Virus record (IMG/VR): IMGVR_UViG_3300045988_128133
DNA: 64,000 nucleotides
Origin: a virus
Direction: 5' to 3' (one strand)
In this document: piece after piece, positions 23,520 to 53,539 of the stretch
Position numbering within the stretch: position 1 is the stretch's first letter
Layout of the letters: each line of letters begins with the position of its first letter
Made by a program: the position numbers and the translations under genes
Notes under the pieces: generated by a model
What the model was told of the DNA's origin: nothing
Databases searched by the model: none
What the model saw: only the letters and a program-made list of their open reading frames with translations

Positions 23520-25676
23520 ATGAGCTATAAGCTTTACCGGGCCGGGCCCAAATTATTTTCAATCATGAATATCAAAGAATACGTAAACGGTTCAGCTATC
23601 GAGCCGGGTGTAACTTACAAGATTGGAACCGCGGATGCCAATTCTGCGTGGACTCTAATCTCCGACCGTCCGATTCTCTTTAAGCTGTCAGCCACGGAAC
23701 CCACGGATTCCGAGTGGTCTAATGTAACTGAAGAGCAATACCTCATCAATGGTGCGCTCTCCAACCAGGTTCTTAAAATTGAATCACCTGCTGGAAAGTT
23801 CTTCGTCGTCCCCACTAATGCACAGGATTCCGCGGCTACCGTGGAATCCGCGTATGCCAAGGTCTCTCTCAAGCCCCTGGGGTTTGACTATGAGGACACG
23901 TATGAGGCACTGCCGCTGGAGGGCGATGGCCCCGTAGCCGAAGGCTTCTACAAGATTTCCAACCTTGAATCCGGCAAGCTCTACTCCATCAATGTATCTC
24001 CTGATGCTGGTGGTCTTAGAGCGAACAACCCTATCCCCGAATACGCCTTTGCCCTTTTCGCTGTAGATGGTTCGAACAATCCCAAGGCTCTTCTGGCCGC
24101 GGGGAATTCCGGTAAGCAACTGGTCTTCGTGGCTACCGAAGCTACGGCTATCATCAACCTCAGCTCCACCATTGAAGAGAGCGAGTTCTTTGTCAGCATC
24201 CGAAATTTTAGTGTAGGCTCTGGTGGTGGAAGCGGCTCTGGTTTTGACCCTGCGTCTGACCAGAACATTACCGGGGCCTGGTCTTTCTCCAATGTAACGG
24301 GCTTAACCATGGCTGATAACGCGGCCATTAAGCTGGGCACGGGAGACGACGCTGTTCAGATTAGAGGGTCGAGCAATGGAGCGGCGGTGATTGAGGGGAC
24401 AAACAAGTCCCATCTTGACATTGCTGTCCCCCTGAAATTGCAGAACCCGGTGACGGTAGATGATAGCCTCAACTTCATTGCCACTACTGGTGAGAAGATG
24501 AAGGCCATTCAGTTTGGCACAGCCGCGGGCATGGCTCGTTGCATTGTGTTTGAAGAGGCCAACAAATTCCTCAGCATTGCTAATCCTGCCAACGTTAACC
24601 AGAAGACGCTCACCATCGACGGTAGCGGCAATATCTGGTTCTATCTGGTAGAGAACCATAATGGACAGTGCAACTTCAACACAGAGGTGCGACTCAATAG
24701 CACGGTTTCAGTTGGCGGGGTTGCCTCGTTCAACAAGACCGTCAACGCGAACCAGGGGATAAACATCCCCCTGACCGTGGGAATCCCTACGGACACCTCC
24801 GTAGTGAACCGTGCCTATGCGGCAGGGTTGGGAACCATTGCCAATATTCTGTCCACTGAGGCCTATCTTAACACAGAGTCCCTGTCGGCTACACAAAGTG
24901 CGGCTATCACCAAGAACGTTCCTTACGCCAGTGCTGATATTCGAGTAAATAACGGAGCCCATTCTACCATTCAGGGAGAATTTCATGCTCGCAGTTTCCA
25001 GTGGAACTATTCCAGTTTTGCGGGTATCTCCTTTATTTGGAGGTGCACGGGGGCAAGTAAGCTCACCTTTGGCATTGGCCGTGGTAGCAAGGACATTCGC
25101 ACAGACCTGTCCATCAATTCGTACAGCATGATACCGGGCAGTTCCCTCGCATACAATCATGGGGAAATCTTTGACATCACCTTCGACAATTCCAGAGATT
25201 CTTCCCGTAATGGATATACTGTGAAGGTCCGGGAGATTTATGCTCTCTCCGCTGATACTGGCTGGAAGGTCAAGACGACTACCAGCTTCATTCCTGCAAC
25301 CAATAACGAACCCATACCGTGGACGGTATGCAAGGTCATTTACATGCAGGAGAAAGTTGCGGCAATAAATAAATACGAACCCACGGGAGCTATTTATCTC
25401 ATGGTCACAGGTGGGCAAGGGAATACCCTGTTCAAAATCGCCACCTGCCGGGGTATCTCCAACTTCGAGTCGGGTGTAGGCCTGAGCCGCTGGGTGACGG
25501 ACGTAGTGAATAATACCACCGGAAGTATTTCCGTAAGCGTTGGCAACGGCGACTACACCTTCTACCAACCAGGTGGTACCAACCCCGCGTACTACGCACT
25601 GAACGCTCTGGCCCGCGACTGTGTGGAAAGTGAAGATACCGCAGACTTCGCGGACATCAATGAACCTATTCAGTAA
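23520..25676 (+). CDS. tail fiber/structural protein (hypothetical)
   Basis: 718-aa ORF with a Gly-rich linker (GSGGGSGSGF). Confidence 0.45.
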   Translation: MSYKLYRAGPKLFSIMNIKEYVNGSAIEPGVTYKIGTADANSAWTLISDRPILFKLSATEPTDSEWSNVTEEQYLINGALSNQVLKIESPAGKFFVVPTNAQDSAATVESAYAKVSLKPLGFDYEDTYEALPLEGDGPVAEGFYKISNLESGKLYSINVSPDAGGLRANNPIPEYAFALFAVDGSNNPKALLAAGNSGKQLVFVATEATAIINLSSTIEESEFFVSIRNFSVGSGGGSGSGFDPASDQNITGAWSFSNVTGLTMADNAAIKLGTGDDAVQIRGSSNGAAVIEGTNKSHLDIAVPLKLQNPVTVDDSLNFIATTGEKMKAIQFGTAAGMARCIVFEEANKFLSIANPANVNQKTLTIDGSGNIWFYLVENHNGQCNFNTEVRLNSTVSVGGVASFNKTVNANQGINIPLTVGIPTDTSVVNRAYAAGLGTIANILSTEAYLNTESLSATQSAAITKNVPYASADIRVNNGAHSTIQGEFHARSFQWNYSSFAGISFIWRCTGASKLTFGIGRGSKDIRTDLSINSYSMIPGSSLAYNHGEIFDITFDNSRDSSRNGYTVKVREIYALSADTGWKVKTTTSFIPATNNEPIPWTVCKVIYMQEKVAAINKYEPTGAIYLMVTGGQGNTLFKIATCRGISNFESGVGLSRWVTDVVNNTTGSISVSVGNGDYTFYQPGGTNPAYYALNALARDCVESEDTADFADINEPIQ

Positions 25677-25681
25677 ACGAC

Positions 25682-26170
25682 ATGAACAACGCAGAGATTC
25701 AAATCCAATTCCCCGAACCTGGTATATGGACGGTGATGAGCATGTCCGCGGTTTATGCGGATGCCGATGGTTTCAACCGGGTAGATACCTATACACAAGA
25801 CACTCTCCCTCCTGAACAGATACCAGCCCTGGAAGCCGCGATTACTGCGATAGCCACGCTGGAAGAAGACTGGAGGGCAAGGCAGGTCTGGGCCCGACTG
25901 GTTACGGAAACCATAGTAACCGCGGAATCCGTGGAATCCGTGGAAACCATTCTTCTCACTGTCGAGGCTATCAACAAAAACGGAGGGACTCGAATGTTCC
26001 GGCCATCCGAATACGAACAATTTCGGCTGACGGACACAGGTTCCCTGTCCTTCTTTAAATACTTCACAACTAAACAACCATCAACCATTTATGGAGATAC
26101 AGGAACTTCTGAACCTACTCCTGCTCCTGAAGCGGTAAAGAAGGTTCGAAAGACTAGAAAGTCCAAGTAA
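25682..26170 (+). CDS. hypothetical protein
   Basis: 162-aa ORF. Confidence 0.45.
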   Translation: MNNAEIQIQFPEPGIWTVMSMSAVYADADGFNRVDTYTQDTLPPEQIPALEAAITAIATLEEDWRARQVWARLVTETIVTAESVESVETILLTVEAINKNGGTRMFRPSEYEQFRLTDTGSLSFFKYFTTKQPSTIYGDTGTSEPTPAPEAVKKVRKTRKSK

Positions 26171-26177
26171 ACCATGG

Positions 26178-26211
26178 GGGCCGGGGGAACAATCCTCCGG
26201 CCCTCTTTTGT
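26178..26211 (+). terminator. rho-independent terminator GGGCCGG-GGGAACAATCCT-CCGGCCC + TCTTTTGT
   Basis: Stem-loop plus T-tract after ORF 25682..26170. Confidence 0.6.
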
Positions 26212-26229
26212 CATACTAAAATAAACTTA

Positions 26230-26257
26230 TTGACAAAAGTAAAAATCCCTGTATGTT
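26230..26257 (+). promoter_or_regulatory. sigma70-like promoter TTGACA-16-TATGTT
   Basis: The consensus hexamers open the accessory island. Confidence 0.5.
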
Positions 26258-26264
26258 GATGCAC

Positions 26265-26585
26265 ATGGATAACAACCCATCCACAAAAAACATCGTAGTA
26301 GTTCAAGACATGACTAATGGTCTTAGCCATGTCATTGAAAGTGAAACCAACGGGGGAGAAGATGTGAAGAAGTACGTTTCTGTCGTGTCCCCCACGGCTC
26401 CCCGTCCAGTACCTCTGTCCCAAATGACCTGGGAGGAAGCGGAGATTGATGCTTTCTGTATCGTTCGGCTCCTCGACCCATCACTGTCCCCTGAACGGGA
26501 ACCTTCGGAGTCGGAATCACAAATTAAGAAAGAAGTGGAATTGACCATTAAATGTGCTAAGAAACGATTGAACAAACAAAACTAA
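26265..26585 (+). CDS. hypothetical protein (start moved to ATG 26265; ATG 26253 lies in the -10 box)
   Basis: In-frame ATG 12 nt downstream of the track start. Confidence 0.4.
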   Translation: MDNNPSTKNIVVVQDMTNGLSHVIESETNGGEDVKKYVSVVSPTAPRPVPLSQMTWEEAEIDAFCIVRLLDPSLSPEREPSESESQIKKEVELTIKCAKKRLNKQN

Positions 26586-26586
26586 A

Positions 26587-26994
26587 ATGGAAAAGCAAGA
26601 TAGATTCTTCCAGAGAGGAGACGAGGTGCGGTTCATCAACCGAGGCAGACCTCTCCCCAAACAGTTCAAGTATGATAAAACGTATATAGTAACTCGAAAT
26701 GAAACGGAAACTGGGCTAGTAGCTATTGAGGGTTTAGACTTCTCAAGTTTCATGTTGGAATTGGTTTCACCCGTTGAAAAGAACTTTCCTTTCGGATTTC
26801 AGGAAGCAGTAAAATACATGATGGAAGGACATATTCTGGAAAGATTGTCCCCTATACATAATGCTAGATTTCGGGTACGAATGATTGATGGGCACATTCA
26901 AAGCAGGCATAATGAATCTACTGACGACAGGGACTGGTGCTCTTGTGCGCTCGATGACGAAGATGTTATGTCCAGGTGGAAAATTGTTGACTAA
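26587..26994 (+). CDS. hypothetical protein, member of GD(E/K)VR(F/Y) beta-barrel-like paralog family
   Basis: The RGDEVRF motif is shared with ORFs 27037, 28386, 28737 and 52973. Confidence 0.45.
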   Translation: MEKQDRFFQRGDEVRFINRGRPLPKQFKYDKTYIVTRNETETGLVAIEGLDFSSFMLELVSPVEKNFPFGFQEAVKYMMEGHILERLSPIHNARFRVRMIDGHIQSRHNESTDDRDWCSCALDDEDVMSRWKIVD

Positions 26995-27026
26995 TTAACC
27001 AATTAACCAATTAACCAATTAACTAA
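26995..27026 (+). repeat. tandem 8-mer TTAACCAA x3 + TTAACTAA
   Basis: Perfect tandem octamers between the stop at 26994 and ATG 27037. Confidence 0.9.
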
Positions 27027-27036
27027 TTGAAACACA

Positions 27037-27609
27037 ATGAAGAGAGAAGATTGTAAACCGAACAAGATTGTCATGTTGAAAGGAGTCATTGACCATGATG
27101 ATAAAACTACAGTACGTCCTATTAAAGTGAACTTCATTCGCCCTGATGAGGACGAACCGCCTTATGCGTGGTTCGACCCGGACCAGTTGCTCGAAGTTAA
27201 GGAACCCACAATTAGCCGGACAAGAAAGTTCTGCAAGGGGGATAAGGTACGGTACGTTTCCAGTGGACGTATGGATTATATTAAGGTACCAAAAGCAGAT
27301 GAAGAGTATGTAGTCACTGTCTCTGAGTTGGATGGCTGGGTTAATATAAAGAACGACCAGTATGACAACTGCGTTAAATGGCATGACCTGGAACTCGTGG
27401 AACCCGTGGATTCCGTGGGTGAAAGGAACCCCTATGAAATCGGGGACTATGAAGGTGCTTATTTCCGCATCCAGCGTGATGGACGATATATCCATGAAAT
27501 CTGGTATAGTTCAAACCTGGGCAGTCCCTATACTAAAGCGGAAGCCCGCCAGATAGCGCAGGAACTCTGTGATGAATTAAACCGTAAGTACAACCCCTCA
27601 AACAATTAA
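27037..27609 (+). CDS. hypothetical protein (MKREDCK N-terminus; KGDKVRY family)
   Basis: 190-aa ORF. Its N-terminus and 5' flank are near-identical to ORF 52973. Confidence 0.5.
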   Translation: MKREDCKPNKIVMLKGVIDHDDKTTVRPIKVNFIRPDEDEPPYAWFDPDQLLEVKEPTISRTRKFCKGDKVRYVSSGRMDYIKVPKADEEYVVTVSELDGWVNIKNDQYDNCVKWHDLELVEPVDSVGERNPYEIGDYEGAYFRIQRDGRYIHEIWYSSNLGSPYTKAEARQIAQELCDELNRKYNPSNN

Positions 27610-27634
27610 ACCGTAAGTACAACCCCTCAAACAA
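27577..27634 (+). repeat. 29-nt perfect tandem duplication (TTAAACCGTAAGTACAACCCCTCAAACAA x2) spanning stop codon of ORF 27037..27609
   Basis: Two identical 29-mers at 27577-27605 and 27606-27634, followed by a partial TTAAACC. Confidence 0.9.
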
Positions 27635-27650
27635 TTAAACCCAACAAGAT

Positions 27651-28112
27651 ATGCCAATACTCAATCTTACAGTCAGCCAGTATATTGTCGTTGCCCTTCT
27701 CATCACCCTGTGGGCTTTCATTGCCCGCTGGGTTATGGCCTGGGTGAATGGCCGTAAAACGGAAGAGGTGAAAAAACTTTGGAAGAAGCAGGGGATAGAA
27801 ACCAACTCCTTCCGAACCCGCGGAAGCCAATACACTCTGTACGAGAAGGGAGCCATGGAACAAATGCATGATACTCTGGTCAACAGGTTTATGCACATTG
27901 TCTATGGAGCCTGCATCTTCTTCATTATGGTGGTCACGGCAGAAAGCATTTACTTCTTCATGACCCCAACTACTGTTGGTGCTTACTTCGCAGGGCTGGC
28001 AGTATGGCTCGCAGGAACTTTCTTCTGGTCTATCTTAGCTACCCAGTTTACTTACTACATCACCCTGCTGTGTGAAAAGCGCAGGCTGACAAATAATAAG
28101 CTTGACGAATAA
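27651..28112 (+). CDS. membrane protein (about 4 TM)
   Basis: 153-aa ORF with multiple hydrophobic helices. Confidence 0.5.
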   Translation: MPILNLTVSQYIVVALLITLWAFIARWVMAWVNGRKTEEVKKLWKKQGIETNSFRTRGSQYTLYEKGAMEQMHDTLVNRFMHIVYGACIFFIMVVTAESIYFFMTPTTVGAYFAGLAVWLAGTFFWSILATQFTYYITLLCEKRRLTNNKLDE

Positions 28113-28135
28113 AACTCCTATTACATAATAACTGC

Positions 28136-28399
28136 ATGTCACCAACACCAATCAAAGAGACGCTTAATTGTCCAGTGTGCGGCTTGCCCTTGTACCTATC
28201 TGACGACCTGTTTACGAAGGACCATCTGGGATATAGTTGCTATGAAGACCGTAATGTCTATTACTACGAATGCCCCGACTGTCCTCTGGCAACCGAATAT
28301 GGAGATACGGAAGAAGATGCTTGGGAGAAAGCTAAACAACTTGTAGATAAGTGTCTTGAAAAATTTAACCAGAAGGAGGCTTCCAATGGCGATGCTTAG
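28136..28399 (+). CDS. zinc-ribbon protein, paralog family A (CPVCG...)
   Basis: CPVCGLPL...CPDCP. Its N-terminus is homologous to the next two ORFs. Confidence 0.5.
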   Translation: MSPTPIKETLNCPVCGLPLYLSDDLFTKDHLGYSCYEDRNVYYYECPDCPLATEYGDTEEDAWEKAKQLVDKCLEKFNQKEASNGDA

Positions 28400-28718
28400 A
28401 TGCCCTGTATGTAACACTCCCCTAAAAGAATTCGAGGATTCCGCATACGAACTTAGTTCTGTAGGCTGTCCCCGGTGCGAATGGACTACGTTTAAAGCGT
28501 ACCCGGAAGAAGCGTGGAAGGCCGCTGAAAAATTTATCAACGAGTTCCCGCCCGCTATGCGGGTGCATCCAGGAGATAAGATTATCTACTTCGATAACCT
28601 GTATCATAGGGTAGGAGGAACCGTTATGGGGAAAGACCCGGTTACCATGCGAATCATACTCGAAGACGGAAGCACTACAGCTGACATGGTGTACAAATGG
28701 CCCTGGCAACTGAACTAG
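28386..28718 (+). CDS. zinc-ribbon + PGD beta-barrel protein, paralog family A
   Basis: ATG 28386 is preceded by GGAGG. CPVCNTPL...CPRCEW and FPPAMRVHPGDKII closely parallel ORF 28737 (FPPLMRVWPGDVVS; KWPWQL/KWPWEL). Confidence 0.5.
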   Translation: MAMLRCPVCNTPLKEFEDSAYELSSVGCPRCEWTTFKAYPEEAWKAAEKFINEFPPAMRVHPGDKIIYFDNLYHRVGGTVMGKDPVTMRIILEDGSTTADMVYKWPWQLN

Positions 28719-28736
28719 AAAGGAGAAAGGAGAATA

Positions 28737-29234
28737 GTGAAAACGTTTAAATGTCCCGTGTGCGGAGGCACCTTCGAACTGCAATCCGATTTGGCCTTCT
28801 ACGATTACCATGAAGCAACCTACGAACAGGTGCATTACTATGTCTGCGACACCTGTGCCCTCACTTCGGACTGGCAGTATATCGAAGATGAGGCGAGGAA
28901 AAAGCTGGAAGCCCTTATCCGCAGGTTTCCCCCTCTCATGAGGGTCTGGCCCGGGGATGTAGTTTCATGGGGAGTCCATCCCGTTACGGTTCTGGATAAG
29001 GATGTCCAGTGCGGAGAACTGCTGGTACTAGATTCTTATGGAAATAAACAGCTTCTTGAACAACGCGTCATTGATAAATGGCCATGGGAACTTGAACAGG
29101 AAAAGGAAGAGAGAAACTGCTATAACTGCAAATATAGCGCACTGTCTTGCAGGGACCATCCCTGTAACGCATGTTCGTCACCGGAAGCACCTGAGTGTTA
29201 TAAGTATTGGGAAGCTGAACCGAAAGAAAACTAA
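28737..29234 (+). CDS. zinc-ribbon + PGD beta-barrel protein with extra C-terminal Cys cluster, paralog family A
   Basis: GTG start after AAAGGAGAAAGGAG. CPVCGGTF...CDTC, then C-terminal CYNCK...CRDHPCNAC. Confidence 0.45.
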   Translation: MKTFKCPVCGGTFELQSDLAFYDYHEATYEQVHYYVCDTCALTSDWQYIEDEARKKLEALIRRFPPLMRVWPGDVVSWGVHPVTVLDKDVQCGELLVLDSYGNKQLLEQRVIDKWPWELEQEKEERNCYNCKYSALSCRDHPCNACSSPEAPECYKYWEAEPKEN

Positions 29235-29389
29235 TGCTATTCGACATCATATATTTGTTCGTCATATTGGCCACCATCGCTGTCTTTGGGTATTACTACT
29301 ACATGGCAGGCAAGGTGCAAGGAGTTCTTATGGCCCTCGAAATTTATCTGACGCACAACGACGAAAAGGAAAATGAAACTGACACCTGA
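29234..29389 (+). CDS. small single-TM protein (51 aa)
   Basis: ATG ORF with a hydrophobic N-terminus (LFDIIYLFVILATIAVFGYYYY) absent from the track. It overlaps the next start by 17 nt. Confidence 0.3.
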   Translation: MLFDIIYLFVILATIAVFGYYYYMAGKVQGVLMALEIYLTHNDEKENETDT

Positions 29390-29726
29390 ACAGCAGGCCT
29401 TTTACCGATATGGGTTTGTCAAAGCCTGTTTATGTCTTAAAATCCAAGAGGCTCGTGATTATGCGCGATACACCTACGGGACAACCTACGCTAAATTAAC
29501 ACCGAAGGAACGGGCAGACTGTCGAAAGCAATTTCAAATTGAATTTCTTCTCGACCTGGTAAGGGACCGAAGAGTCACGTGCCGGGCGTGGGTACCGCCG
29601 CGACAACGCGGTTGCTCAACCTGTAGGCATGACGGAACTCATTACAAGCTTTGTGCACTCTGCCACGGTGAAGGATGGCCTGTCAGCTGGGTACCGAAAA
29701 GGAATTCCCTAGGTAAGATGAAATGA
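29373..29726 (+). CDS. Cys/His-rich hypothetical protein
   Basis: CRAW...CSTCRHDGTHYKLCALCHGEGW. Confidence 0.45.
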   Translation: MKLTPEQQAFYRYGFVKACLCLKIQEARDYARYTYGTTYAKLTPKERADCRKQFQIEFLLDLVRDRRVTCRAWVPPRQRGCSTCRHDGTHYKLCALCHGEGWPVSWVPKRNSLGKMK

Positions 29727-29748
29727 CAAATTCTACTAAATAATATTC

Positions 29749-29776
29749 TTGACAAAACAACCGGGGGTACTACAAT
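29749..29776 (+). promoter_or_regulatory. sigma70-like promoter TTGACA-16-TACAAT
   Basis: Consensus hexamers 25 nt upstream of ATG 29801. Confidence 0.5.
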
Positions 29777-29800
29777 ACCTCCGAACTCCAATCAAATTCA

Positions 29801-30022
29801 ATGATGAAGTTAGACCCTATCGTACCCTCCTGCGCTCACTGCCATTACAGCGACCTGCCTTCGGAGTCGTTCCCGTGTTCAGATTGTGACAAAGACTATA
29901 GCCAATTTACAGCCAAGTCTATCTGCCGTATCTGTTCACTCGCAAGCATGTCACTCTGCCAACCTGATTGTTTCACCTGCAATTCATCCTGGGCAGAGAT
30001 TAAGAACAACAAAAAGAAATAA
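29801..30022 (+). CDS. CxxC zinc-finger protein, paralog family B
   Basis: CAHCHYSDLPSESFPCSDCD...CRICS...CFTC. It matches the pattern of ORF 30030. Confidence 0.45.
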   Translation: MMKLDPIVPSCAHCHYSDLPSESFPCSDCDKDYSQFTAKSICRICSLASMSLCQPDCFTCNSSWAEIKNNKKK

Positions 30023-30029
30023 CCACCCC

Positions 30030-30602
30030 ATGTCTCAAACCAAACTTACAGAATCCTGTGACCATTGTGTCTATAATGAATTGAGAGGGAATGATTATCC
30101 CTGCTCAGATTGTTCATCCCAAGGGACCCATTTCACCCCGGACCCCATATGTCAAAAATGTGAACATGCGGACACCCCTGTGGCAGATTATCCTTGTTCA
30201 ACCTGCCGCATCGAATCTGATAGGGGACATTACGTAGAATCCACGGAATCCACGGAACCTGTGTCTCCGTGCCAGTCCTGCCCGCACGCGGGGACCCCTC
30301 CGCTCCAACAGCCATGCGCGGACTGCGGTCACAATGGGCTTAGTGCGGGCATTCAAAGGAACAGAGAAGCAGAGTACCAGCGGTTCGTGGAGGAAATGAA
30401 TGCACGCCCAGCCGCCTGTATCTGCGGGGAGAATCCCGAATATGTGGAAGACAACATCTATCCCGGAGAAGTCCACCGCTATGTGGTCTGCAACGGGAGT
30501 CACCCCGTCCCCCATTCCCTGTCGGTCCACGGCGGCAATAGCCGGGAGGAAACCATTGGACGATGGAACGCTTTTATTTTCAATCTTAAAAACAATAAAT
30601 AA
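30030..30602 (+). CDS. multi-CxxC zinc-finger protein, paralog family B
   Basis: The start is at MSQTKLTESCDHCVYNELRGNDYPCSDCS. The pattern repeats about four times (CQKC...CSTC...CQSC...CADC). Confidence 0.5.
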   Translation: MSQTKLTESCDHCVYNELRGNDYPCSDCSSQGTHFTPDPICQKCEHADTPVADYPCSTCRIESDRGHYVESTESTEPVSPCQSCPHAGTPPLQQPCADCGHNGLSAGIQRNREAEYQRFVEEMNARPAACICGENPEYVEDNIYPGEVHRYVVCNGSHPVPHSLSVHGGNSREETIGRWNAFIFNLKNNK

Positions 30603-30604
30603 TT

Positions 30605-30838
30605 ATGTATATGGCAAACACACCGCTCTATCATAATCAGGTCCGACAAATGCGTAAACTACTTCAGATTAACTTCGGCATACCCTGGGAAGAACTTGCG
30701 CTCATGACAGACAATGAAGCCGAAGAAACTCTGTCCTCCCTGGGGTACACCCTCGTCAAAACCGCCTCTGTGGATGACGGCACTCTGTACGTCGTCCCCA
30801 AAGACCTGCTCGAAAACGCTTTCACTCTAAACCGATGA
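30605..30838 (+). CDS. hypothetical protein
   Basis: 77-aa ORF. Confidence 0.4.
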   Translation: MYMANTPLYHNQVRQMRKLLQINFGIPWEELALMTDNEAEETLSSLGYTLVKTASVDDGTLYVVPKDLLENAFTLNR

Positions 30839-30914
30839 TTATGTTTCTAATCGGCGCGGCCATGGCTCTCTGCCTAATCTACATCATTGAGAATAACGAA
30901 CCACTTTTACCTGC

Positions 30915-31397
30915 ATGAAGAATCAAGGAAAACTCATCCAGCACCCAGGGCTCAAGTACCCACGGAAACCACGGAATTGTACACCCGCTGTAAAGAAGAT
31001 TCCCTATGGCTACATGTCCACCCAGGAAATCGCGGAAGCCGTGGGTAGAACTCCCACCTGTGTTCTCGTTACTCTGGAACGCCGCAAGGTGCCGAAGGTA
31101 CGTTCCGGCAAGATGGTTTACTGGGACGGAGACATAGCACGGGAATATATTAAAACACTTAACTCAGACGTGTACGAGGGAATTCCTAACGGATATACGG
31201 ATATGGAAGGAGCCCTGGAACTCACTGGTTTTAAGAATGGAGCGACCCTCTCCACCATGTTTAAGCGCGGGCGGGTCCGGCGTGTCCGGTACCGTGATGA
31301 CATGGGTGCCGGGAGAAAGACGCGATTCGCGTATAATATTCTTGACCTGGAACGGCATATGGGCTTAACTAATGTCACCGAAGATGACGACGAATAA
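30915..31397 (+). CDS. HTH DNA-binding protein (Xis/AlpA/MerR-like helix-turn-helix)
   Basis: MSTQEIAEAVGRTPTCVLVTLERRKVPKVRSGKMVYW fits the AlpA/excisionase-type HTH pattern. Confidence 0.45.
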   Translation: MKNQGKLIQHPGLKYPRKPRNCTPAVKKIPYGYMSTQEIAEAVGRTPTCVLVTLERRKVPKVRSGKMVYWDGDIAREYIKTLNSDVYEGIPNGYTDMEGALELTGFKNGATLSTMFKRGRVRRVRYRDDMGAGRKTRFAYNILDLERHMGLTNVTEDDDE

Positions 31398-31728
31398 TAA
31401 CCATCAAATGGCAAAAGTCAGCAATCAGGAGGCATTACTGACAATTCTGTCCTGGGTCGATTTATTCGACCCTGACATGAGCCTGACCCGACTCCGCATC
31501 CTGCTTGCCCTTCACGGTGCGGGGGGCACCCCCACGCTGACGGTCAAGGTTTTGTCTCGCTATCTGTCTCTTTCCACGTCCAACCTTAACTATAATCTCA
31601 AGAAACTGATGGAGGATGGATGGGTGGAGATTGTAGAGGATAGCGAACCTGCTCTCTATCAACTGACAAGACGTGGCAGAACCTTCTGCCGCGATATATT
31701 CAAACCCCGAAAGTACATCAACAAATGA
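31372..31728 (+). CDS. winged-helix (MarR/ArsR-like) transcriptional regulator
   Basis: LTRLRILLALHGAGG...NLNYNLKKLMEDGWVEIVED is a typical wHTH recognition helix plus wing. Confidence 0.5.
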   Translation: MSPKMTTNNNHQMAKVSNQEALLTILSWVDLFDPDMSLTRLRILLALHGAGGTPTLTVKVLSRYLSLSTSNLNYNLKKLMEDGWVEIVEDSEPALYQLTRRGRTFCRDIFKPRKYINK

Positions 31729-32147
31729 CTCACGAAGAAATTGAAAAGGTAGCTGAACAGCTATACACCCTGACAGAATCCCGTACTGCATGGTCTGAAC
31801 TTGACACTGCGGGCCAATACCCCTACGTCAAACTGGCACTCAATCTGGGAGAAAAGAAACCGGAAATTCTTGGTGAACTGGTTTCAAAGTACTGCGTCGA
31901 TTTCGGAATGCCCAGCAAGTACAAGGCGATTGTCGCTGGGATTATTTCCGGGATTCTTACGGTACTGGCCGCTTTCGGTCTCATCTCCCAGAACAGCTGT
32001 ACCCGTGTCGATATGACGGAAGACCATGCAATTATTTGTCGTGGCGATTCCTGCATTGTCCTTGAGCCGGGCCGGATTTCCTACAGCCAGGCCCAGCCGG
32101 AAACGGACGTGCCTCCGGTGGTTCAGGTAAAACCCAGCAAGAAGTAA
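31725..32147 (+). CDS. membrane protein
   Basis: The hydrophobic helix is IVAGIISGILTVLAAFGLI. Confidence 0.45.
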   Translation: MTHEEIEKVAEQLYTLTESRTAWSELDTAGQYPYVKLALNLGEKKPEILGELVSKYCVDFGMPSKYKAIVAGIISGILTVLAAFGLISQNSCTRVDMTEDHAIICRGDSCIVLEPGRISYSQAQPETDVPPVVQVKPSKK

Positions 32148-32148: not shown

Positions 32149-33186
32149 ATGGCCGACAACGAGGTTCAATATTCAGAACTGCCCTCAGCCCCGGACCTCT
32201 TTAATCATCCGGTACCCACGGTTCCCGTGGGTACCGAATTGTTTAATGACATGCCGCCGTTCGATTCCCTCCCTGACCCCATTGCCCCAGTTTACGGTGA
32301 AAGCGATGTCATGGTACATACTCCGTCGCCGTACAACGACGACCCCCTGATGCGGAACCGACCGGAGAATATGTTCGCTATCGTCTATGACCCAACGAAC
32401 AGCGGAGCCAACGCGGCCGTCCAGTACGTTGCCGGGGTAATCATCGACAGCAATGAGGTTACTAAAATAGGTGGGGAACCGGGAACCCTGCACAATGTCG
32501 ATTCCAAAGAGCAGGCACCGCTGGACGAGGACATCACCTGGTACCTCAATGTGAAAAGCGACCGGGCCAGTTCCACGGTGACAAGCGTAAAGGACGAGAG
32601 TGCTGACTTCTCTGTCCCTCTGGCCAAGATGACTCGCGGCAATAACGGGTACATTCAGCAGTTACACCGTGGTGCTGTGTTCATTGGTGGCGGTAGCGGA
32701 GGCGGCACGTTCCCGTTTAAAGTCACTACCTCTAAGGAACAGGATGGTTCTGGCGTATGGCATACCTACGCAGTAATCGTTGAGGGCGGCTTCCGGGACA
32801 CCGACCGGAAGAAGGCTACCATAGATGGGTTCAAGGACGGGAAGGCTAAAGTGGAAATTGTCACGGATGGTGAACTCCCTATCCTGTTGGAGTGGGAATA
32901 TGCATGGCCCTATACGGGGCTGACCCAAGCTAAGGTGGTTGTCGATGATAAGCCCTGGGATGGGAAGGAAGTCATTACACCCATTACCAGTGAAGAGGGG
33001 AATGGTAAAAGTAAATGCGCTTTAGCCATCCTTACTGTCACCCGTGCCAAAGATGGGACGCTCGACGCAGTTGTTAAATCCCAGCTGGTCAATACCGGGT
33101 TAATCGCCATGTGGTATAGCGGCTACGTTGACGGGGTATCGGGCAACGTCGGCCAGTATGCAGAAGCCAGTACTGTATCACCATGA
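32149..33186 (+). CDS. virion structural protein (hypothetical)
   Basis: 345-aa ORF. It contains the perfect 11-bp palindrome at 32211-32235. Confidence 0.45.
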   Translation: MADNEVQYSELPSAPDLFNHPVPTVPVGTELFNDMPPFDSLPDPIAPVYGESDVMVHTPSPYNDDPLMRNRPENMFAIVYDPTNSGANAAVQYVAGVIIDSNEVTKIGGEPGTLHNVDSKEQAPLDEDITWYLNVKSDRASSTVTSVKDESADFSVPLAKMTRGNNGYIQQLHRGAVFIGGGSGGGTFPFKVTTSKEQDGSGVWHTYAVIVEGGFRDTDRKKATIDGFKDGKAKVEIVTDGELPILLEWEYAWPYTGLTQAKVVVDDKPWDGKEVITPITSEEGNGKSKCALAILTVTRAKDGTLDAVVKSQLVNTGLIAMWYSGYVDGVSGNVGQYAEASTVSP

Positions 33187-33998
33187 GTTCTCTTCTTCTC
33201 TACCCCAAGCCATTGCAGGGGAATAGACCTGCATCCTTCCTGCAACAGTGGCACCAGAAGCTGACACATCCCTTCAATGAGATGTACTGGTATGGGACAC
33301 CCGGACCTACACTCCATGGCATGCCAACTCCGAACGGGCTTGCTATTCCCATTAAAGCAGATGCAACTTATCGACCGGGAGTCCGGTGCAAAAATATCAG
33401 TGATGCGTGGAAGATATACAATACCCTGAAAGGATTAAAGACTCCAGAAATGACACCTGTATTGCCGAGCCAGGCAGGATGGAAGACCCATATCTACCCT
33501 ACGGAATCTGTACGTGTCTTTGACTACGAAGTCTGGAAAGTGTGGCACCCGAATCAGCCACAGCATGAGATGACGCTGGATGAGGTCAAGACCTGGCCCA
33601 TACCTACAGAGGGTGGCCTGGGAGGTTCCATTTACGTGGTGACGTATAATGAGAACGGGGTTCTCATCGATAACACAGCCCGGTTCCTAATTGACCAGGT
33701 ATGGTACATTGAAGAAGAGACGGGAGCTGTTTACCTGGACCTTCGCTACAATATCACAGGCCAGTATGAACAGAGGGTTTCCGGTGTTGGCCGAACCTTC
33801 AACGTATCAGCTGACTTCGGAAGACGACAGCACATCAATGGAACACAGTCCCGTATCATCCAGTGGACTGGCGAGATATGCGGCGTGACAGTCGATTTCC
33901 TTGCTTCCTACTTCAGCTATGCTCCTTCCACGGTAACAGTCCCCCAGGTGCCTGTTCTTACCACATTCTTCAAAGGAATCCAGTTTACTACCCTTTGA
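33183..33998 (+). CDS. hypothetical structural protein
   Basis: 271-aa ORF, translationally coupled to the previous gene. Confidence 0.45.
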   Translation: MSSLLLYPKPLQGNRPASFLQQWHQKLTHPFNEMYWYGTPGPTLHGMPTPNGLAIPIKADATYRPGVRCKNISDAWKIYNTLKGLKTPEMTPVLPSQAGWKTHIYPTESVRVFDYEVWKVWHPNQPQHEMTLDEVKTWPIPTEGGLGGSIYVVTYNENGVLIDNTARFLIDQVWYIEEETGAVYLDLRYNITGQYEQRVSGVGRTFNVSADFGRRQHINGTQSRIIQWTGEICGVTVDFLASYFSYAPSTVTVPQVPVLTTFFKGIQFTTL

Positions 33999-34061
33999 AC
34001 ATTTCAATACAGCTGTACAATCCCCCAGCGGATTTCGTACATTGAAATGTCAGAGCGTTTA

Positions 34062-34100
34062 GATTGCGAGAATATACGGAAAATGTATATTCTCGCAATC
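34062..34100. terminator. perfect 16-bp palindrome GATTGCGAGAATATAC-GGAAAAT-GTATATTCTCGCAATC followed by ATTTTAT
   Basis: Intergenic, 7-nt loop, T-rich tail. It is a terminator or operator. Confidence 0.55.
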
Positions 34101-35716: not shown

Positions 35717-36226
35717 ATGCCCTGCAACGTACAGCGCGGAGAATTCTATATTGCCAACGACGGACCGGAAAGCAATTCCGAAATCATAGCAAACGTACTT
35801 CCCAGGATGGACGGGATTCTGTCGCGGTCCCGCTCCATGACCTGGGGTATGATTAGCTACACCCTGTCCCACCTGAACAATCCGTTCGGCATTGCTCTGG
35901 AACATATGCGGGTAGGTTTCGCGGCGCGTACCGCATCCCTGCCGGACGCTATGGGGGTGGTCGATGTATCTCACTGGATTATCATTGAGAAGGTACCTAT
36001 CTCTTTTGAGGACTTCCGCTGTGTCTTCAAGATTCTGGAACCCACGGATTCCCCGGATGAGCGGAAGGATTATCTCCTTCATGGCAAGTGGTTTACACCT
36101 ACCAAGGAAATCAAACTGAGCAACGATATGATTACCCGGTTCCACTGGGAACTGGGCTATCCTGAAAACGAACGAATCAACCTGCTGGAAGACAGCACAG
36201 AAGAAGACGATGACACAGAAAGCTAA
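35717..36226 (+). CDS. hypothetical protein (start at internal ATG MPCNVQRGEF)
   Basis: The first ATG after the upstream stop. The track ORF starts earlier at a non-ATG codon. Confidence 0.4.
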   Translation: MPCNVQRGEFYIANDGPESNSEIIANVLPRMDGILSRSRSMTWGMISYTLSHLNNPFGIALEHMRVGFAARTASLPDAMGVVDVSHWIIIEKVPISFEDFRCVFKILEPTDSPDERKDYLLHGKWFTPTKEIKLSNDMITRFHWELGYPENERINLLEDSTEEDDDTES

Positions 36227-52242: not shown

Positions 52243-52265
52243 GCTACATTAAATCCTTGACTTAC

Positions 52266-52308
52266 AGAGGGCATGGGGGGTACAATCCTCCCATGCCCTC
52301 TTTTCGTA
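52266..52308 (+). terminator. rho-independent terminator (12-bp stem AGAGGGCATGGG / CCCATGCCCTCT, loop GGGTACAATCCT, TTTTCG)
   Basis: It overlaps the candidate promoter TTGACT(52257-52262)...TACAAT(52281-52286). Confidence 0.65.
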
Positions 52309-52370
52309 TAGTACCCAATCATGTCAGAGCCACCCCTCCCGGTGGCTGGAAATTTATTGTCCCGGAATCT

Positions 52371-52904: not shown

Positions 52905-52951
52905 CAATAATAAAACAACAGTCATACTGGCGTTGCTATGAAAGAGCAACG
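52901..52951 (+). promoter_or_regulatory. sigma70-like promoter TTGACA-17-ATACTG followed by 5' stem-loop CGTTGCT/AGCAACG
   Basis: Hexamers at 52901-52906 and 52924-52929. The hairpin is at 52931-52951. Confidence 0.45.
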
Positions 52952-52972: not shown

Positions 52973-53539
52973 ATGAAGAGAGAAGAATGCAAAGTAGGAA
53001 CAATGGTCCGGGTTACTTGTGGCGAACACAAATCTGCTATAGGTATTATCAAGGAAGATGATGGAACCGGAACATTGCCTATCAGAGTCAGATACATTGA
53101 TGAGACAGGCTACGATTTCTACGAACCCTTTGAGTTAGAACCTTACTCATGCACAGACATTAACCACAACGAATCCAAAATGAAAACCACCTTTGAACCT
53201 GAAGAACTTAAAAACATAACCCTGCATAAGGGAAGCACCGCATATATCAAATCTTCACAGGGCGGGGTCCCTGTCGTCCTTGGCGTTGAAGTGGACCATA
53301 TCTCCTACGATATTGAACGCAAAACTGTTGAAGTGACATACACCAACCACCATTTCAGGACTCAGGAATGCGGCACTTTGAATCTGGAAGTATTCTTCTG
53401 TGCAGACGATGCCAACATGTCAGCTATTCGAGAATACGAACGTGTAGTCCAGAGCCTCAAGCGCGGCTGGGAATCAGCAGAAGCTCATTTAGAACAGCTC
53501 AAAAAAAATCATAAGGATAAAAACTATATCGTCAAATAA
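52973..53539 (+). CDS. hypothetical protein (MKREECK N-terminus, paralog of ORF 27037)
   Basis: About 27 nt around the start codon are near-identical to 27031-27057. Confidence 0.5.
   Translation: MKREECKVGTMVRVTCGEHKSAIGIIKEDDGTGTLPIRVRYIDETGYDFYEPFELEPYSCTDINHNESKMKTTFEPEELKNITLHKGSTAYIKSSQGGVPVVLGVEVDHISYDIERKTVEVTYTNHHFRTQECGTLNLEVFFCADDANMSAIREYERVVQSLKRGWESAEAHLEQLKKNHKDKNYIVK

What the first reader, a model, noticed from the sequence alone, without database searches (positions are those of the whole stretch)
26230..31728. Accessory island inside the structural module: terminator/promoter-bounded cluster of tandem paralog families (zinc ribbons, GD-V beta-barrel proteins) plus two HTH regulators
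A terminator (26178-26211) and a promoter (26230-26257) open a run of 15 small genes between structural genes.

Three paralog families are expanded in tandem:
- Family A: CPVCG zinc-ribbon proteins at 28136, 28386 and 28737. The latter two share FPP(A/L)MRV(H/W)PGD and KWPW(Q/E)L.
- Family B: C-HC-Y..L...PCSDC zinc-finger proteins at 29801 and 30030.
- A GD(E/K)VR beta-barrel-like family at 26587, 27037, 28386 and 28737, with a distant copy at 52973.

The island also holds a 4-TM membrane protein, an AlpA/Xis-like HTH (30915) and a MarR-like wHTH (31372). Several genes here (28386, 28737) have strong GGAGG ribosome-binding sites, unlike most genes in the window, which suggests acquisition from a different background. 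Such islands typically carry anti-defence or host-takeover functions.
Basis: partly seen in the sequence, partly recalled or inferred. Interest (0 to 1): 0.7.

Follow-up and report, generated by a model that had tools for sequence, protein, structure and literature searches.

The report
Mosaic accessory-gene island in Akkermansia phage
Between two tail-fibre-like genes of a previously undescribed ~71 kb phage of the gut bacterium Akkermansia lies a 6 kb block of small genes with their own promoters; its content differs between near-identical phages and is built from shuffled zinc-ribbon, small-barrel and Tad2/AcrIIA7-fold modules shared with Akkermansia prophages, which most likely makes it a counter-defence / host-interaction arsenal, though no function has been shown.

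Summary
The cluster is real. A strong terminator (26176-26205) and a conserved sigma-70-like promoter (26230-26257) open a run of 15 small + strand genes, plus a 27-aa micro-ORF.

- There is no 3' boundary at 31728. Genes stay coupled into the fibre-like genes, up to a terminator at 34062-34100.
- The "GD-V barrel family" is three sequence families that profile comparison does not link.
- The AlpA/Xis-like HTH at 30915 is not confirmed. The MarR call at 31372 is.

New results:
- The host is Akkermansia.
- The island consists of three promoter-led cassettes that are present or absent independently among relatives. Family A ranges from 0 to 5 copies.
- Family A is a rare two-domain family: a Lar-type zinc ribbon plus a Tudor/SH3-like barrel. 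Its two halves have been re-assorted between this phage lineage and Akkermansia prophages.

Best reading: a moron-type accessory island resembling acr-aca operons, with variable small effectors upstream of conserved DNA-binding regulators. The anti-defence function is inferred, not shown. It is a new variant of a known kind, of moderate interest.

The parts
23520..26170 (+). Upstream flank: a 718-aa fibre-like protein and a 162-aa partner gene.
   Evidence: The N-terminal ~260 aa are conserved and the C-terminus is replaced in L007 and L010, together with the small downstream genes. The L018 homologue has a faint BppL_N hit. There is no Pfam, PHROG or PDB hit.
26176..26205 (+). Intrinsic terminator that closes the fibre operon.
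   Evidence: dG -27.8, z -4.9. L007 and L010 have a different hairpin sequence at the same site.
26206..26257 (+). Promoter P1 (TTGACA 26230, TATGTT 26252). The palindrome TTTTGTCA-N17-TGACAAAA (26206-26238) overlaps its -35 element.
   Evidence: P1 is conserved in all 7 genomes. The conserved ATG at 26265 lies 7 nt after the -10 element, a leaderless geometry.
26253..26585 (+). g26253: a 110-aa acidic protein of unknown function. The likely true start is 26265.
   Evidence: Present in relatives, but frameshifted in L002 and truncated in L007. No family hit.
26587..26994 (+). g26587: a small barrel (26593-26772) fused to a Tad2/AcrIIA7-fold domain (26773-26991).
26987..27026 (.). Tandem 8-mer TTAAC(C/T)AA, 4 copies here.
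   Evidence: Relatives carry 1-4 copies.
27037..27609 (+). g27037: an N-terminal barrel (type bb0), a barrel (type bb1) and an unknown C-terminal domain.
   Evidence: In L003 the C-domain is replaced by the Tad2-fold domain. Fusion proteins P0017 and P0019 exist.
27575..27632 (.). Perfect 29-nt tandem duplication that spans the stop codon of g27037.
   Evidence: Relatives carry 1-3 copies.
27651..28112 (+). g27651: a multi-pass membrane protein with 3-4 TM spans.
   Evidence: Absent from L010.
28102..28129 (+). Promoter P2 (TTGACG-16-CATAAT). The ATG at 28136 lies 6 nt after the -10 element.
   Evidence: The same geometry, with a diverged spacer, is found in L002 and L003. P2 is absent from L010, together with family A.
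28136..28399 (+). Family A member 1: a Lar-type zinc ribbon only (87 aa).
28386..28718 (+). Family A member 2: zinc ribbon plus barrel (110 aa), with a GGAGG ribosome-binding site.
28737..29234 (+). Family A member 3: zinc ribbon, Tudor/SH3-like barrel and a 4-Cys knuckle (165 aa), with a GTG start and an AGGAG site.
   Evidence: AF2 pLDDT above 90 for residues 1-125. The barrel matches the PHF1 and SMN Tudor domains, TM 0.6-0.68. TIGR03655 Lar E 9e-4. Family size.
29234..29389 (+). g29234: a 51-aa single-TM protein.
   Evidence: Its presence varies among relatives.
29373..29726 (+). g29373: a basic helical domain plus a 4-Cys knuckle (117 aa).
   Evidence: It is the adjacent partner of family A in the temperate phage L014. 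Relatives carry 0-4 copies.
29749..29776 (+). Promoter P3 (TTGACA-16-TACAAT).
   Evidence: Conserved in L003 and L010. Absent from L002, together with family B.
29801..30022 (+). Family B member 1: two 4-Cys units (73 aa).
   Evidence: The module HMM calls one unit (29828-29914). The second Cys cluster (ICRIC...CFTC) was read by eye.
30030..30602 (+). Family B member 2: three 4-Cys units plus a C-terminal CxC...WN domain (190 aa).
   Evidence: Its homologues occur only in this phage group.
30605..30918 (+). g30605 (77 aa) and an overlapping 27-aa TM micro-ORF (30835-30918).
   Evidence: The micro-ORF is conserved in 6 loci.
30915..31397 (+). g30915: a basic 160-aa protein conserved in all relatives. 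An HTH is plausible but not confirmed.
   Evidence: 72-99% identity, net charge +9, no significant family or PDB hit.
31372..31728 (+). g31372: a MarR-family winged-helix regulator.
   Evidence: PF12802 E 6.3e-11, 42.7 bits against a cut-off of 27. Conserved at 60-100% identity.
31725..32147 (+). g31725: a 140-aa single-TM protein, coupled to both of its neighbours.
32149..34100 (+). Downstream flank: the fibre-like 345-aa and 271-aa genes, then a terminator at 34062-34100.
   Evidence: The N-terminal 201 aa are 70% conserved. The C-terminus and the next gene are replaced in relatives. Terminator.
52973..53539 (+). Distant copy of the bb0 N-terminal barrel outside the island, preceded by a similar promoter at 52901.

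Best explanation
WHAT IT IS
This is a mosaic accessory-gene island (in the 'moron' sense) of an Akkermansia phage. It is inserted after the terminator of one receptor-binding/fibre operon and runs into the next fibre-like genes.

HOW IT IS BUILT
The island consists of three cassettes, each led by its own host-type sigma-70-like promoter:
- TU1 holds an acidic protein, two small-barrel proteins (one carrying a Tad2/AcrIIA7-fold domain) and a membrane protein.
- TU2 holds an array of Lar-type zinc-ribbon / Tudor-like-barrel proteins plus a basic helical zinc-knuckle protein.
- TU3 holds multi-zinc-knuckle proteins, followed by a conserved tail of a basic DNA-binding-like protein, a MarR regulator and a membrane protein.

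The cassettes are gained, lost and re-assorted, down to the level of single domains, by recombination with other phages of the same host, prophages included.

INFERRED MECHANISM
The variable small acidic proteins are early-expressed binders. They would neutralise host defence components or other host factors: a signal or RNA sponge through the Tad2/AcrIIA7-fold domain, and restriction alleviation or a similar activity through the Lar-type proteins. The conserved regulators at the 3' end would control expression, as Aca proteins do in acr-aca operons.

SHOWN VERSUS INFERRED
Shown: the anatomy, the variability, the exchange with prophages, the folds and the MarR identity.
Inferred: expression timing, targets, anti-defence activity and autoregulation.
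For: BOUNDARY AND PROMOTERS
- The terminator is strong and positionally conserved, with a different sequence in L007 and L010.
- Promoters P1, P2 and P3 share an AT-rich upstream tract, TTGACA, an A-rich 16-nt spacer and TAnnnT. They are conserved in divergent relatives with diverged spacers.
- L010 lacks P2 together with family A. L002 lacks P3 together with family B.

VARIABILITY
- The 162-aa to 140-aa gene distance is 3.5-6.5 kb in the four genomes with both anchors.
- Module counts differ per genome: ZRA 0-5, HEL 0-4, ZFB 0-7, TAD 1-2.
- The nucleotide-identity mosaic is discordant with the backbone.

NOT STRUCTURAL
- Family A and its g29373-like partner occur as an adjacent pair in temperate phage L014, in its early region. 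There they sit between a RusA-like gene (my reading of the sequence) and two DNA methylases (Pfam-annotated).
- A family A gene also occurs in an A. muciniphila MAG prophage, between genes I read by eye as RusA-like and replication genes.

RECENT EXCHANGE AND DOMAIN SWAPS
- Nucleotide identity is 94% over 179 nt between the prophage L016 and L012.
- Zinc ribbon 100% / barrel 12% for W_28737 against P0003.
- Barrel 97% / zinc ribbon 36% for P0003 against the prophage.
- Zinc ribbon 80% / barrel 10% for L014 against L003_15745.

ANTI-DEFENCE LINKS
- The top Foldseek PDB hit is SPO1 Tad2.
- Lar_restr_allev is hit by 9 of 50 family A members, best E 1.2e-7. Sub-threshold Lar hits appear in three libraries for the window copies.
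- Most variable proteins are acidic.
- Akkermansia MAGs carry BREX and R-M loci (PMC10799925).

REGULATORS
- MarR_2 scores above its cut-off.
- Both putative regulators are conserved in every relative.
- A palindrome overlaps the P1 -35 element.
- The acr-aca operon logic is taken from PMC6765145 and PMC9410906.
Against: - No protein here reaches a curated threshold for any anti-defence family.
- The Pfam scan of g26587, which includes the DUF2829 model, returned no family. Profile-profile comparison with Tad2/AcrIIA7 sequences aligns only the first helix (probability 5%).
- The GWNGKG loop, which holds the ligand-contacting W25 and N26 of SPO1 Tad2, is absent.
- Lar-type zinc ribbons are a broad family of small phage proteins, and a function is known for only one member.
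- About half the island is conserved in all relatives.
- Expression timing is unknown. The promoter calls are consensus matches, and their overall count in the region is not above shuffles (22 against 15.7 +/- 3.8).
- The host assignment rests on one MAG prophage plus one related temperate contig.
Confidence: 0.55

Rival explanations
1. This is a host-takeover or regulatory module rather than anti-defence. The zinc-ribbon, KOW/Tudor-like barrel and zinc-knuckle proteins, the basic g29373 and g30915 and the MarR protein would bind nucleic acids or the host transcription/replication machinery, and so re-programme gene expression early in infection.
For: - Tudor/SH3/KOW-like barrels and zinc ribbons are typical nucleic-acid or RNAP-binding modules. 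Foldseek hits include the PWWP-ssDNA complex, the uL2 barrel and Tudor domains. The N-terminus of g52973 gives a weak KOW5_SPT5 hit.
- g29373 has net charge +13, g30915 +9 and MarR +5.
- In the prophages the cassette lies among replication and recombination genes.
- The 3' genes are conserved in all relatives.
Against: - Copy number ranges from 0 to 5, and whole cassettes are lost in otherwise similar phages. That argues against an essential regulatory role.
- The best structural matches for the only domain with a specific match are anti-defence proteins.
- The variable proteins are mostly acidic.
Confidence: 0.25
2. These are structural or assembly accessories of the tail-fibre region: chaperones, adaptors or decoration proteins that co-vary with the receptor-binding proteins flanking them.
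For: - The island sits between two fibre-like genes whose C-termini are swapped among relatives.
- There is no terminator between the island and the next fibre-like genes.
- Weak hits link the g27037 barrel to a 'virion structural protein' PHROG (E 0.059).
Against: - Island content does not co-vary with the fibre type. L007 has a different fibre but a 95-99% identical TU1/TU2, while L002 and L003 share the fibre at 93-100% identity but differ in TU2.
- The family A / g29373 pair sits in the early regions of temperate phages, far from structural genes.
- The island has its own promoters after a strong terminator.
- It contains a MarR regulator.
Confidence: 0.08
3. This is a superinfection-exclusion or other 'moron' function. 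It would be mediated mainly by the four membrane proteins (g27651, g29234, the 27-aa ORF and g31725), with the soluble proteins as cofactors.
For: Three of the 15 genes plus the 27-aa micro-ORF encode TM proteins. Morons with their own promoters often encode exclusion functions (general knowledge). g27651 and g29234 vary in presence.
Against: Exclusion is mostly a trait of temperate phages, and no integrase or repressor was seen in this window. The expanded families are soluble and Cys-rich.
Confidence: 0.07

Closest known systems
acr-aca (anti-CRISPR / anti-CRISPR-associated) operons and other phage anti-defence loci
   Same: - Short, variable and horizontally exchanged genes sit behind a strong promoter of their own.
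- They are followed in the same orientation by conserved DNA-binding regulator genes.
- The island is embedded in an otherwise conserved late region.
- An inverted repeat overlaps the promoter.
- One protein has the fold of AcrIIA7.
(PMC6765145, PMC9410906, PMC13551039)
   Different: - The island is much larger: 15 genes in three promoter-led cassettes.
- The candidate regulators are a MarR winged helix and an unclassified basic protein, not a known Aca family.
- No protein is a sequence-level homologue of a validated Acr.
- Repression by the regulators is untested.
Tad2 / AcrIIA7 (DUF2829) anti-defence proteins
   Same: - The N-terminal helix motif F-x-x-A...G...R and a C-terminal W-x5-D...W-x-I-V-(D/E) resemble the family by eye.
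- pdAcrIIA7 also carries an extra N-terminal domain (PMC13133391).
   Different: - No Pfam family is detected in g26587, DUF2829 included, and the HMM finds no PDB sequence.
- hhalign gives only 5% probability.
- The GWNGKG loop with W25 and N26 is replaced.
- The domain is fused to an SH3-like barrel.
- Oligomeric state and ligand are unknown.
Lar (RalR) restriction-alleviation family, PF14354 / TIGR03655
   Same: - The family A N-terminal module is a CxxC...CxxC zinc ribbon followed by an 'EEAW..A' helix.
- 9 of 50 family members hit PF14354 (best E 1.2e-7).
- In temperate relatives it lies next to recombination genes, and in L014 directly upstream of two methylases.
   Different: - The window copies score below the curated cut-offs: 15 bits against 28.6, and 19.5 against 39.6.
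- The ribbon is fused to a Tudor-like barrel through a conserved FPPxMRVxPGD joint.
- No restriction-alleviation activity has been tested.
Morons and hyperplastic regions of tailed phages (lambdoid nin region, T4-type plastic regions)
   Same: Autonomous promoter-equipped cassettes are inserted between conserved genes, with deviating GC and translation signals, and vary between close relatives.
   Different: Here the cassettes consist of a small set of protein modules that are recombined at domain joints between a lytic-type lineage and prophages of the same host.

Membership tests
Tad2 / AcrIIA7 (DUF2829) | Match to the Pfam DUF2829 model, or to Tad2/AcrIIA7 sequences. | tested here: not met
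   The Pfam scan gives 0 families at E <= 0.5. An HMM of the domain finds nothing among PDB sequences at E <= 10. hhalign against three Tad2/AcrIIA7 sequences aligns 19 columns with probability 5%.
Tad2 / AcrIIA7 (DUF2829) | Fold: an N-terminal helix followed by an antiparallel sheet. | tested here: met
   [not shown]
Tad2 / AcrIIA7 (DUF2829) | Ligand-contact residues of SPO1 Tad2 (W25, N26, W73, D79). | tested here: inconclusive
   The W25/N26 loop (GWNGKG) is absent: LSPIHNA occupies the equivalent loop. A W-x5-D pair (W117, D123) could correspond to W73 and D79. This is a by-eye alignment only.
Tad2 / AcrIIA7 (DUF2829) | Homotetramer that sequesters gcADPR/His-ADPR or binds tracrRNA. | not testable with these tools
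   This needs biochemistry or multimer modelling.
Lar restriction-alleviation family (PF14354 / TIGR03655) | HMM score above the curated cut-off. | tested here: inconclusive
   The window copies score 14-15.5 bits against 28.6 and 19.5 against 39.6. However, 9 of 50 homologues of the same family hit PF14354, with a best E of 1.2e-7.
Lar restriction-alleviation family (PF14354 / TIGR03655) | Four-Cys zinc ribbon followed by a helix. | tested here: met
   C6, C9, C37 and C40 are invariant in 50 sequences. The AF2 model shows a beta-hairpin 12-37 and a helix 50-62 with pLDDT above 90.
Lar restriction-alleviation family (PF14354 / TIGR03655) | Alleviates type I restriction. | not testable with these tools
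   This needs plating assays.
acr-aca-type operon | Variable small genes upstream of a conserved HTH regulator in one transcription unit. | tested here: met
   No terminator was found between 26205 and 34062.
acr-aca-type operon | The regulator binds inverted repeats in the operon promoter. | tested here: inconclusive
   The palindrome TTTTGTCA-N17-TGACAAAA overlaps the -35 element of P1 and is conserved. Binding has not been tested. P2 and P3 carry TGACA/TGTCA elements at other spacings.
acr-aca-type operon | Contains a validated Acr, or a member of a known Aca family. | not tested
   No Acr/Aca library is available. There is only fold-level similarity to AcrIIA7.
MarR family (g31372) | Pfam MarR_2 score above the gathering score. 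| tested here: met
   42.7 bits against 27, E 6.3e-11. Pfam annotation in relatives agrees.
AlpA / Xis HTH_17 (g30915) | HMM match to an excisionase/AlpA-type HTH. | tested here: not met
   No Pfam, PHROG or NCBIfam hit at E <= 0.5. The best PDB profile hits are homeodomains at E 0.7-1.2.
Tudor / SH3-like small barrel (family A middle domain) | Five-stranded small-barrel fold. | tested here: met
   Foldseek matches the PHF1 and SMN Tudor domains: probability 1.00, TM 0.6-0.68, rmsd 2.3-3.1 A over 51-56 columns.
   hhalign between the three barrel profiles gives probability <= 2.4%. Only 26587 with the middle of 27037, and the N-termini of 27037 and 52973, are linked.
Tail assembly chaperone / structural protein | Homology to structural families, and invariant presence in relatives. 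| tested here: not met
   No significant structural hit. Content varies. Homologues sit in prophage early regions.

The most novel reading that the evidence does not exclude
Family A proteins would be two-part adaptors, in which a Lar-type zinc ribbon and a Tudor-like barrel carry independent specificities. The two parts are re-assorted at a conserved FPPxMRVxPGD joint between lytic-type and temperate Akkermansia phages. Two ribbon groups, three barrel types and all six pairings are seen by eye. One search supports the barrel types quantitatively, but the 'a-like' ribbon group only weakly (44% identity). Together with the zinc-knuckle/helical proteins and an SH3-fused, signature-less Tad2-fold protein, they would form a combinatorial, promoter-modular counter-defence toolkit of a kind not yet described. 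It would include a new branch of the Tad2/AcrIIA7 fold with a different ligand.
Probability: 0.3. Interest if true: 0.75.

Novelty: new variant of a known kind. Interest (0 to 1): 0.55.

Why it matters
Akkermansia muciniphila is a keystone gut bacterium, and very little phage biology is known for it. The terminase of this phage has no match among 50,697 deposited phage genomes.

The island gives a concrete, compact list of candidate host-interaction and counter-defence genes for that host:
- a rare two-domain family (96 clusters among 1.84 billion representative proteins) whose domains visibly recombine between lytic-type and temperate phages;
- a Tad2/AcrIIA7-fold protein that sequence methods miss.

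If these are active, they would extend the known range of signal-sponge and Lar-type inhibitors. They would also show that anti-defence repertoires can evolve by shuffling domains within promoter-equipped cassettes. If they are not anti-defence, the island is still a clean natural example of moron-style modular evolution inside a late operon.

Tried and rejected
SEARCHES THAT FOUND NOTHING USEFUL
- megablast of the island and tblastn of TerL against INPHARED: no match.
- PHROG, Pfam and NCBIfam scans of all 15 island proteins: only MarR passes a threshold.
- PDB sequence searches with profiles of the Tad2-like domain and of g30915, and with the fibre-like protein and the presumed capsid protein: nothing significant.
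- Word-indexed homologue searches for g28737, g26587 and g30030: only 8-12 close relatives each, none annotated.
- Rfam on 25-35 kb: no hit. tRNA scan: none.
- AFDB50 fold search: not available.
- PHROG and Pfam scans of flanking and other genes, to prove a 'structural module': only TerL, the endolysin and replication genes were identified.
- g31372 against the wHTH protein of L014: no similarity.

IDEAS REJECTED
- A single GD-V barrel family: rejected by hhalign.
- Recent in-situ tandem duplication (a 'gene accordion'): the paralogs are only 25-47% identical, and each is closer to copies in other phages.
- A Bacteroidota host, suggested by the lack of SD sites: rejected because the promoters are TTGACA/TATAAT-type and the exchange is with an Akkermansia prophage.
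- The giant 3199-aa protein as a recognisable RNA polymerase: no Pfam hit and no DxDxD motif.

Full report
1. WHAT IS AT THE COORDINATES

The ORF map shows an unbroken run of small + strand genes from 26253 to 32147, most of them abutting or overlapping. GC falls to 0.44-0.47 across 26-30 kb, against about 0.52 in the rest of the window.

The hairpin at 26176-26205 has a 13-bp stem with 10 GC pairs. It folds at -27.8 kcal/mol (z = -4.9) and is followed by UUUUGU.

Downstream lies TTGACA-16-TATGTT at 26230-26257.

BLASTP among the island proteins confirms these links:
- Family A: 28386 against 28737, E 1e-11; 28136 against 28737, E 8e-9.
- Family B: 29801 against 30030, E 4.5e-13.
- 26587 against the middle of 27037, E 9e-6.
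- The N-terminus of 27037 against the N-terminus of 52973, E 3e-6.

g31372 is a MarR_2 protein above Pfam's cut-off. g27651 has 3-4 hydrophobic spans.

Only about 4 of about 72 genes have an SD-like site at the right spacing. Two of them are 28386 and 28737.

- The three barrel types are not linked by profile-profile comparison (probability <= 2.4%).
- g30915 has no HTH family hit.
- Nothing ends at 31728. g31725 overlaps the MarR stop and abuts g32149, and the next convincing terminator is at 34062-34100.

2. THE PHAGE AND ITS HOST

The window holds:
- a replication block at 1-10 kb: primase-helicase, PolA, helicase and exonuclease;
- TerL at 11605-13440;
- an endolysin at 36210-36959;
- a 3199-aa ORF with no family hit;
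- a minus-strand nucleotide-metabolism block with ThyX, DUF3310 and an NAD ligase.

Neither the island DNA nor TerL matches any of 50,697 deposited phages. None of the presumed virion proteins hits a family. 'Inside the structural module' therefore rests on gene order, and on the behaviour of the two flanking large genes. Both keep their N-termini and swap their C-termini among relatives, as receptor-binding proteins do. One homologue has a faint BppL_N hit.

The host is Akkermansia. A family A gene lies in a prophage region of an A. muciniphila MAG (L016). Its barrel-coding half is 94% identical in nucleotides over 179 nt to the copy in relative L012. A second temperate contig, L014, shares its repressor gene with that prophage at 93%.

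3. COMPARISON WITH RELATIVES

Seven genomes with a complete island and several partial ones were recovered.

- The distance between the 162-aa gene and the 140-aa gene is 5555 bp (window), 3536 bp (L002), 6490 bp (L003) and 5860 bp (L012). L007 and L010 lack the 162-aa anchor.
- Module HMMs give a different domain string for each lineage: family A ribbons 0-5, barrels 0-3, helical domain 0-4, zinc knuckles 0-7, Tad2-fold domains 1-2.
- Sliding nucleotide identity shows histories that disagree with the backbone. L002 and L003 are 72-86% identical to the window in the head region, but 93-100% across the fibre C-terminus and the first island genes, and unalignable at 28-30 kb. L007 has a different fibre, but a 95-99% identical TU1/TU2.
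- The genes present in all complete islands are g26587, g27037, g30915, the MarR gene and g31725. g26253 is also present throughout, although degraded in L002 and L007. g30605 is found in every complete island except L010.
- Two short tandem repeats vary in copy number: the 8-mer at 26987-27026 and the 29-mer at 27575-27632.

4. TRANSCRIPTION SIGNALS

L007 and L010 have a different gene upstream of the island and a different hairpin sequence at the same place. After it comes the same TTTTGTCATACTAAAATAAAC.TATTGACAAAAG. This argues for a real terminator and a real promoter.

That segment is a palindrome, TTTTGTCA-N17-TGACAAAA, unique in the window.

Two more promoters of the same style lie at 28102 and 29749: an AT-rich tract, TTGACA, an A-rich 16-nt spacer and TAnnnT. 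In the divergent L002, L003 and L010 they recur at the equivalent positions with diverged spacers. P2 is missing exactly where family A is missing (L010). P3 is missing where family B is missing (L002).

The island is therefore three promoter-equipped cassettes.

At P1 and P2 a conserved ATG sits 6-7 nt after the -10 element (26265, 28136). This suggests leaderless mRNAs, in keeping with the near-absence of SD sites. Expression timing itself is not known.

5. THE PROTEINS

Sequence methods do not see this link. There is no Pfam hit and no PDB HMM hit, and hhalign aligns only the first helix. The GWNGKG loop, which holds the ligand-contacting W25 and N26 of SPO1 Tad2, is replaced. A W-x5-D pair may correspond to W73 and D79, by eye only.

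This establishes fold membership, not family membership. In L003 a second protein carries the same domain, and fusions with the other barrel type exist.

Family A. The model of g28737 has pLDDT above 90 for residues 1-125. It shows a zinc-ribbon hairpin plus helix, then a Tudor/SH3-like barrel that matches the PHF1 and SMN Tudor domains (TM 0.6-0.68), then a helix. The C-terminal zinc knuckle is not modelled.

A full HMMER search of 1.84 billion representatives finds 96 clusters at E <= 1e-3, and 47 at E <= 1e-10. Their architecture is conserved: MK..KCP.CG ... C..C ... FPPIMR..GD ... WPWELEQ(K)GG. Nine of 50 members hit Lar_restr_allev, best E 1.2e-7. The window copies give only sub-threshold Lar hits.

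The common C-terminal ELEQKGG encodes AAAGGAGG for the next gene. This explains the unusual SD sites.

Family B and related proteins are built from a C-x2-C-x9-12-C-x2-C unit. g30030 adds a C-terminal CxC...RWN domain that looks Lar-like by eye but has no HMM support. g29373 joins a basic helical domain to the same knuckle.

6. EXCHANGE WITH TEMPERATE PHAGES AND DOMAIN SWAPPING

In L014 the pair [family A][g29373-like] lies in the early region. It follows an S24 repressor, a PDDEXK nuclease and a gene I read as RusA-like from its sequence. It sits directly upstream of two DNA methylases, and every gene there has a strong GGAGG site.

In the A. muciniphila prophage, the family A gene lies between genes I read by eye as RusA-like and replication genes.

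Per-domain identities show recombination at the FPPxMRVxPGD joint:

| Pair compared | Zinc ribbon identity | Barrel identity |
|---|---|---|
| W_28737 and its L012 allele (P0003) | 100% | 12% |
| The L012 allele (P0003) and the prophage copy (L016) | 36% | 97% |
| L014 copy (P0006) and L003_15745 | 80% | 10% |
| L014 copy (P0006) and W_28737 | 35% | 72% |

Paralogs inside one genome are only 25-47% identical, and each is closer to copies elsewhere. The array is therefore a collection of old lineages, not a recent duplication.

7. INTERPRETATION

Shown:
- an insulated 5' end;
- modular promoters;
- presence/absence and domain-level mosaicism;
- sharing with the early regions of prophages;
- a MarR regulator;
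- a Tad2/AcrIIA7 fold;
- a Lar-type ribbon.

Inferred: that the variable proteins act early as inhibitors of host defences or other host factors, and that the conserved 3' regulators tune expression.

I give this 0.55.

The main rival is a regulatory or host-takeover role without a defence target (0.25). It uses the same modules, which are generic nucleic-acid and protein binders, and it fits the basic g29373 and g30915.

A structural or assembly role (0.08) is disfavoured. Island content does not track fibre type, and the same cassette lives far from structural genes in prophages.

A membrane-protein-based exclusion function (0.07) cannot be excluded.

8. RELATION TO KNOWN SYSTEMS AND NOVELTY

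The closest architecture is the acr-aca operon: variable small inhibitor genes, followed by a conserved regulator that binds inverted repeats in the promoter (PMC6765145, PMC9410906, PMC13551039). More generally it resembles the moron or plastic-region concept.

The differences are the size, the three-cassette layout, the candidate regulators, and the absence of any sequence-level homologue of a validated inhibitor.

The Tad2 and AcrIIA7 literature shows that this fold serves both as a signal sponge and as a tracrRNA binder (bioRxiv 10.1101/2023.05.01.538930; PMC13133391). Fold alone therefore does not fix the ligand.

I rate the finding a new variant of a known kind.

9. WHAT LED NOWHERE

See Tried and rejected: most family and PDB searches were empty, AFDB50 was unavailable, and the structural identity of the flanks could not be proven.

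Noticed in passing
window 42643-52242: A 3199-aa ORF, Ala/Glu-rich at its N-terminus, has no Pfam hit and no DxDxD-type polymerase motif. It follows ORFs of 959, 245 and 356 aa that also lack any hit.
   Followed up: partly
whole window; P1 at 26230, P2 at 28102, promoter at 34130: About 68 of 72 genes lack any Shine-Dalgarno site. At three sigma-70-like promoters an ATG lies 6-7 nt after the -10 element (26265, 28136, 34165), which suggests leaderless mRNAs. This geometry is kept in divergent relatives at P1 (L010) and P2 (L002/L003); the 34130 promoter was not compared.
   Followed up: partly
whole window, e.g. 23692/23701, 30241/30250, 30960/30969, 34293/34302, 46430/46439: The hexamer CCACGG/CCGTGG occurs 96 times in 64 kb, about 3 times the expectation, often as pairs 9 nt apart on either strand. 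GGTACC is also about 2 times enriched. This is unexplained.
   Followed up: partly
window 32210-32236: A perfect 12-3-12 palindrome, CGGTACCCACGG-TTC-CCGTGGGTACCG, lies inside the 5' part of the fibre-like gene g32149. It is conserved in the close relatives L001 and L012. It could be an operator or an RNA hairpin.
   Followed up: partly
window 30835-30918: A 27-aa hydrophobic micro-ORF (MIMFLIGAAMALCLIYIIENNEPLLPA) overlaps the stop of g30605 and the start of g30915 by ATGA. It is conserved in six loci, with conservative substitutions.
   Followed up: partly
window 26987-27026 and 27575-27632: Two variable-number tandem repeats: an 8-mer TTAAC(C/T)AA (1-4 copies among relatives) and a 29-mer spanning the stop of g27037 (1-3 copies).
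   Followed up: yes
window 23520-25676 and 32149-33998; L007, L010, L018-L020: Both fibre-like genes keep their N-termini but swap their C-termini, together with their small downstream genes, among relatives. L018-L020 carry a cytidylyltransferase-like gene (CTP_transf_3) downstream instead of g33183.
   Followed up: partly
L014 (Logan ERR13960587_566) and L016 (A. muciniphila MAG CANQLV010000002.1, 295620-311958): Two Akkermansia temperate-phage regions carry an S24 repressor, a PDDEXK nuclease and a RusA-like gene (my reading). L014 also has a SocA_Panacea gene and two DNA methylases. L016 has a DnaB-like helicase and a 531-aa protein upstream of the terminase genes, both read by eye.
   Followed up: partly
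window 14137-14889: A 250-aa ORF shortly after TerL has a weak HNH-endonuclease PHROG hit (E 1e-3).
   Followed up: no
window 52257-53539: After the giant gene come a Cys-rich 215-aa protein, a promoter-like site at 52901, a 12-codon mini-ORF ending in ATGA at the start of g52973, and g52973 itself. g52973 shares its N-terminal barrel with g27037.
   Followed up: partly
window 57948-58514 (- strand): A 188-aa protein has a TFIIB-type zinc ribbon (PF08271, E 6e-6, just below the cut-off). It lies in the minus-strand nucleotide-metabolism block that holds ThyX, DUF3310 and the NAD ligase.
   Followed up: no
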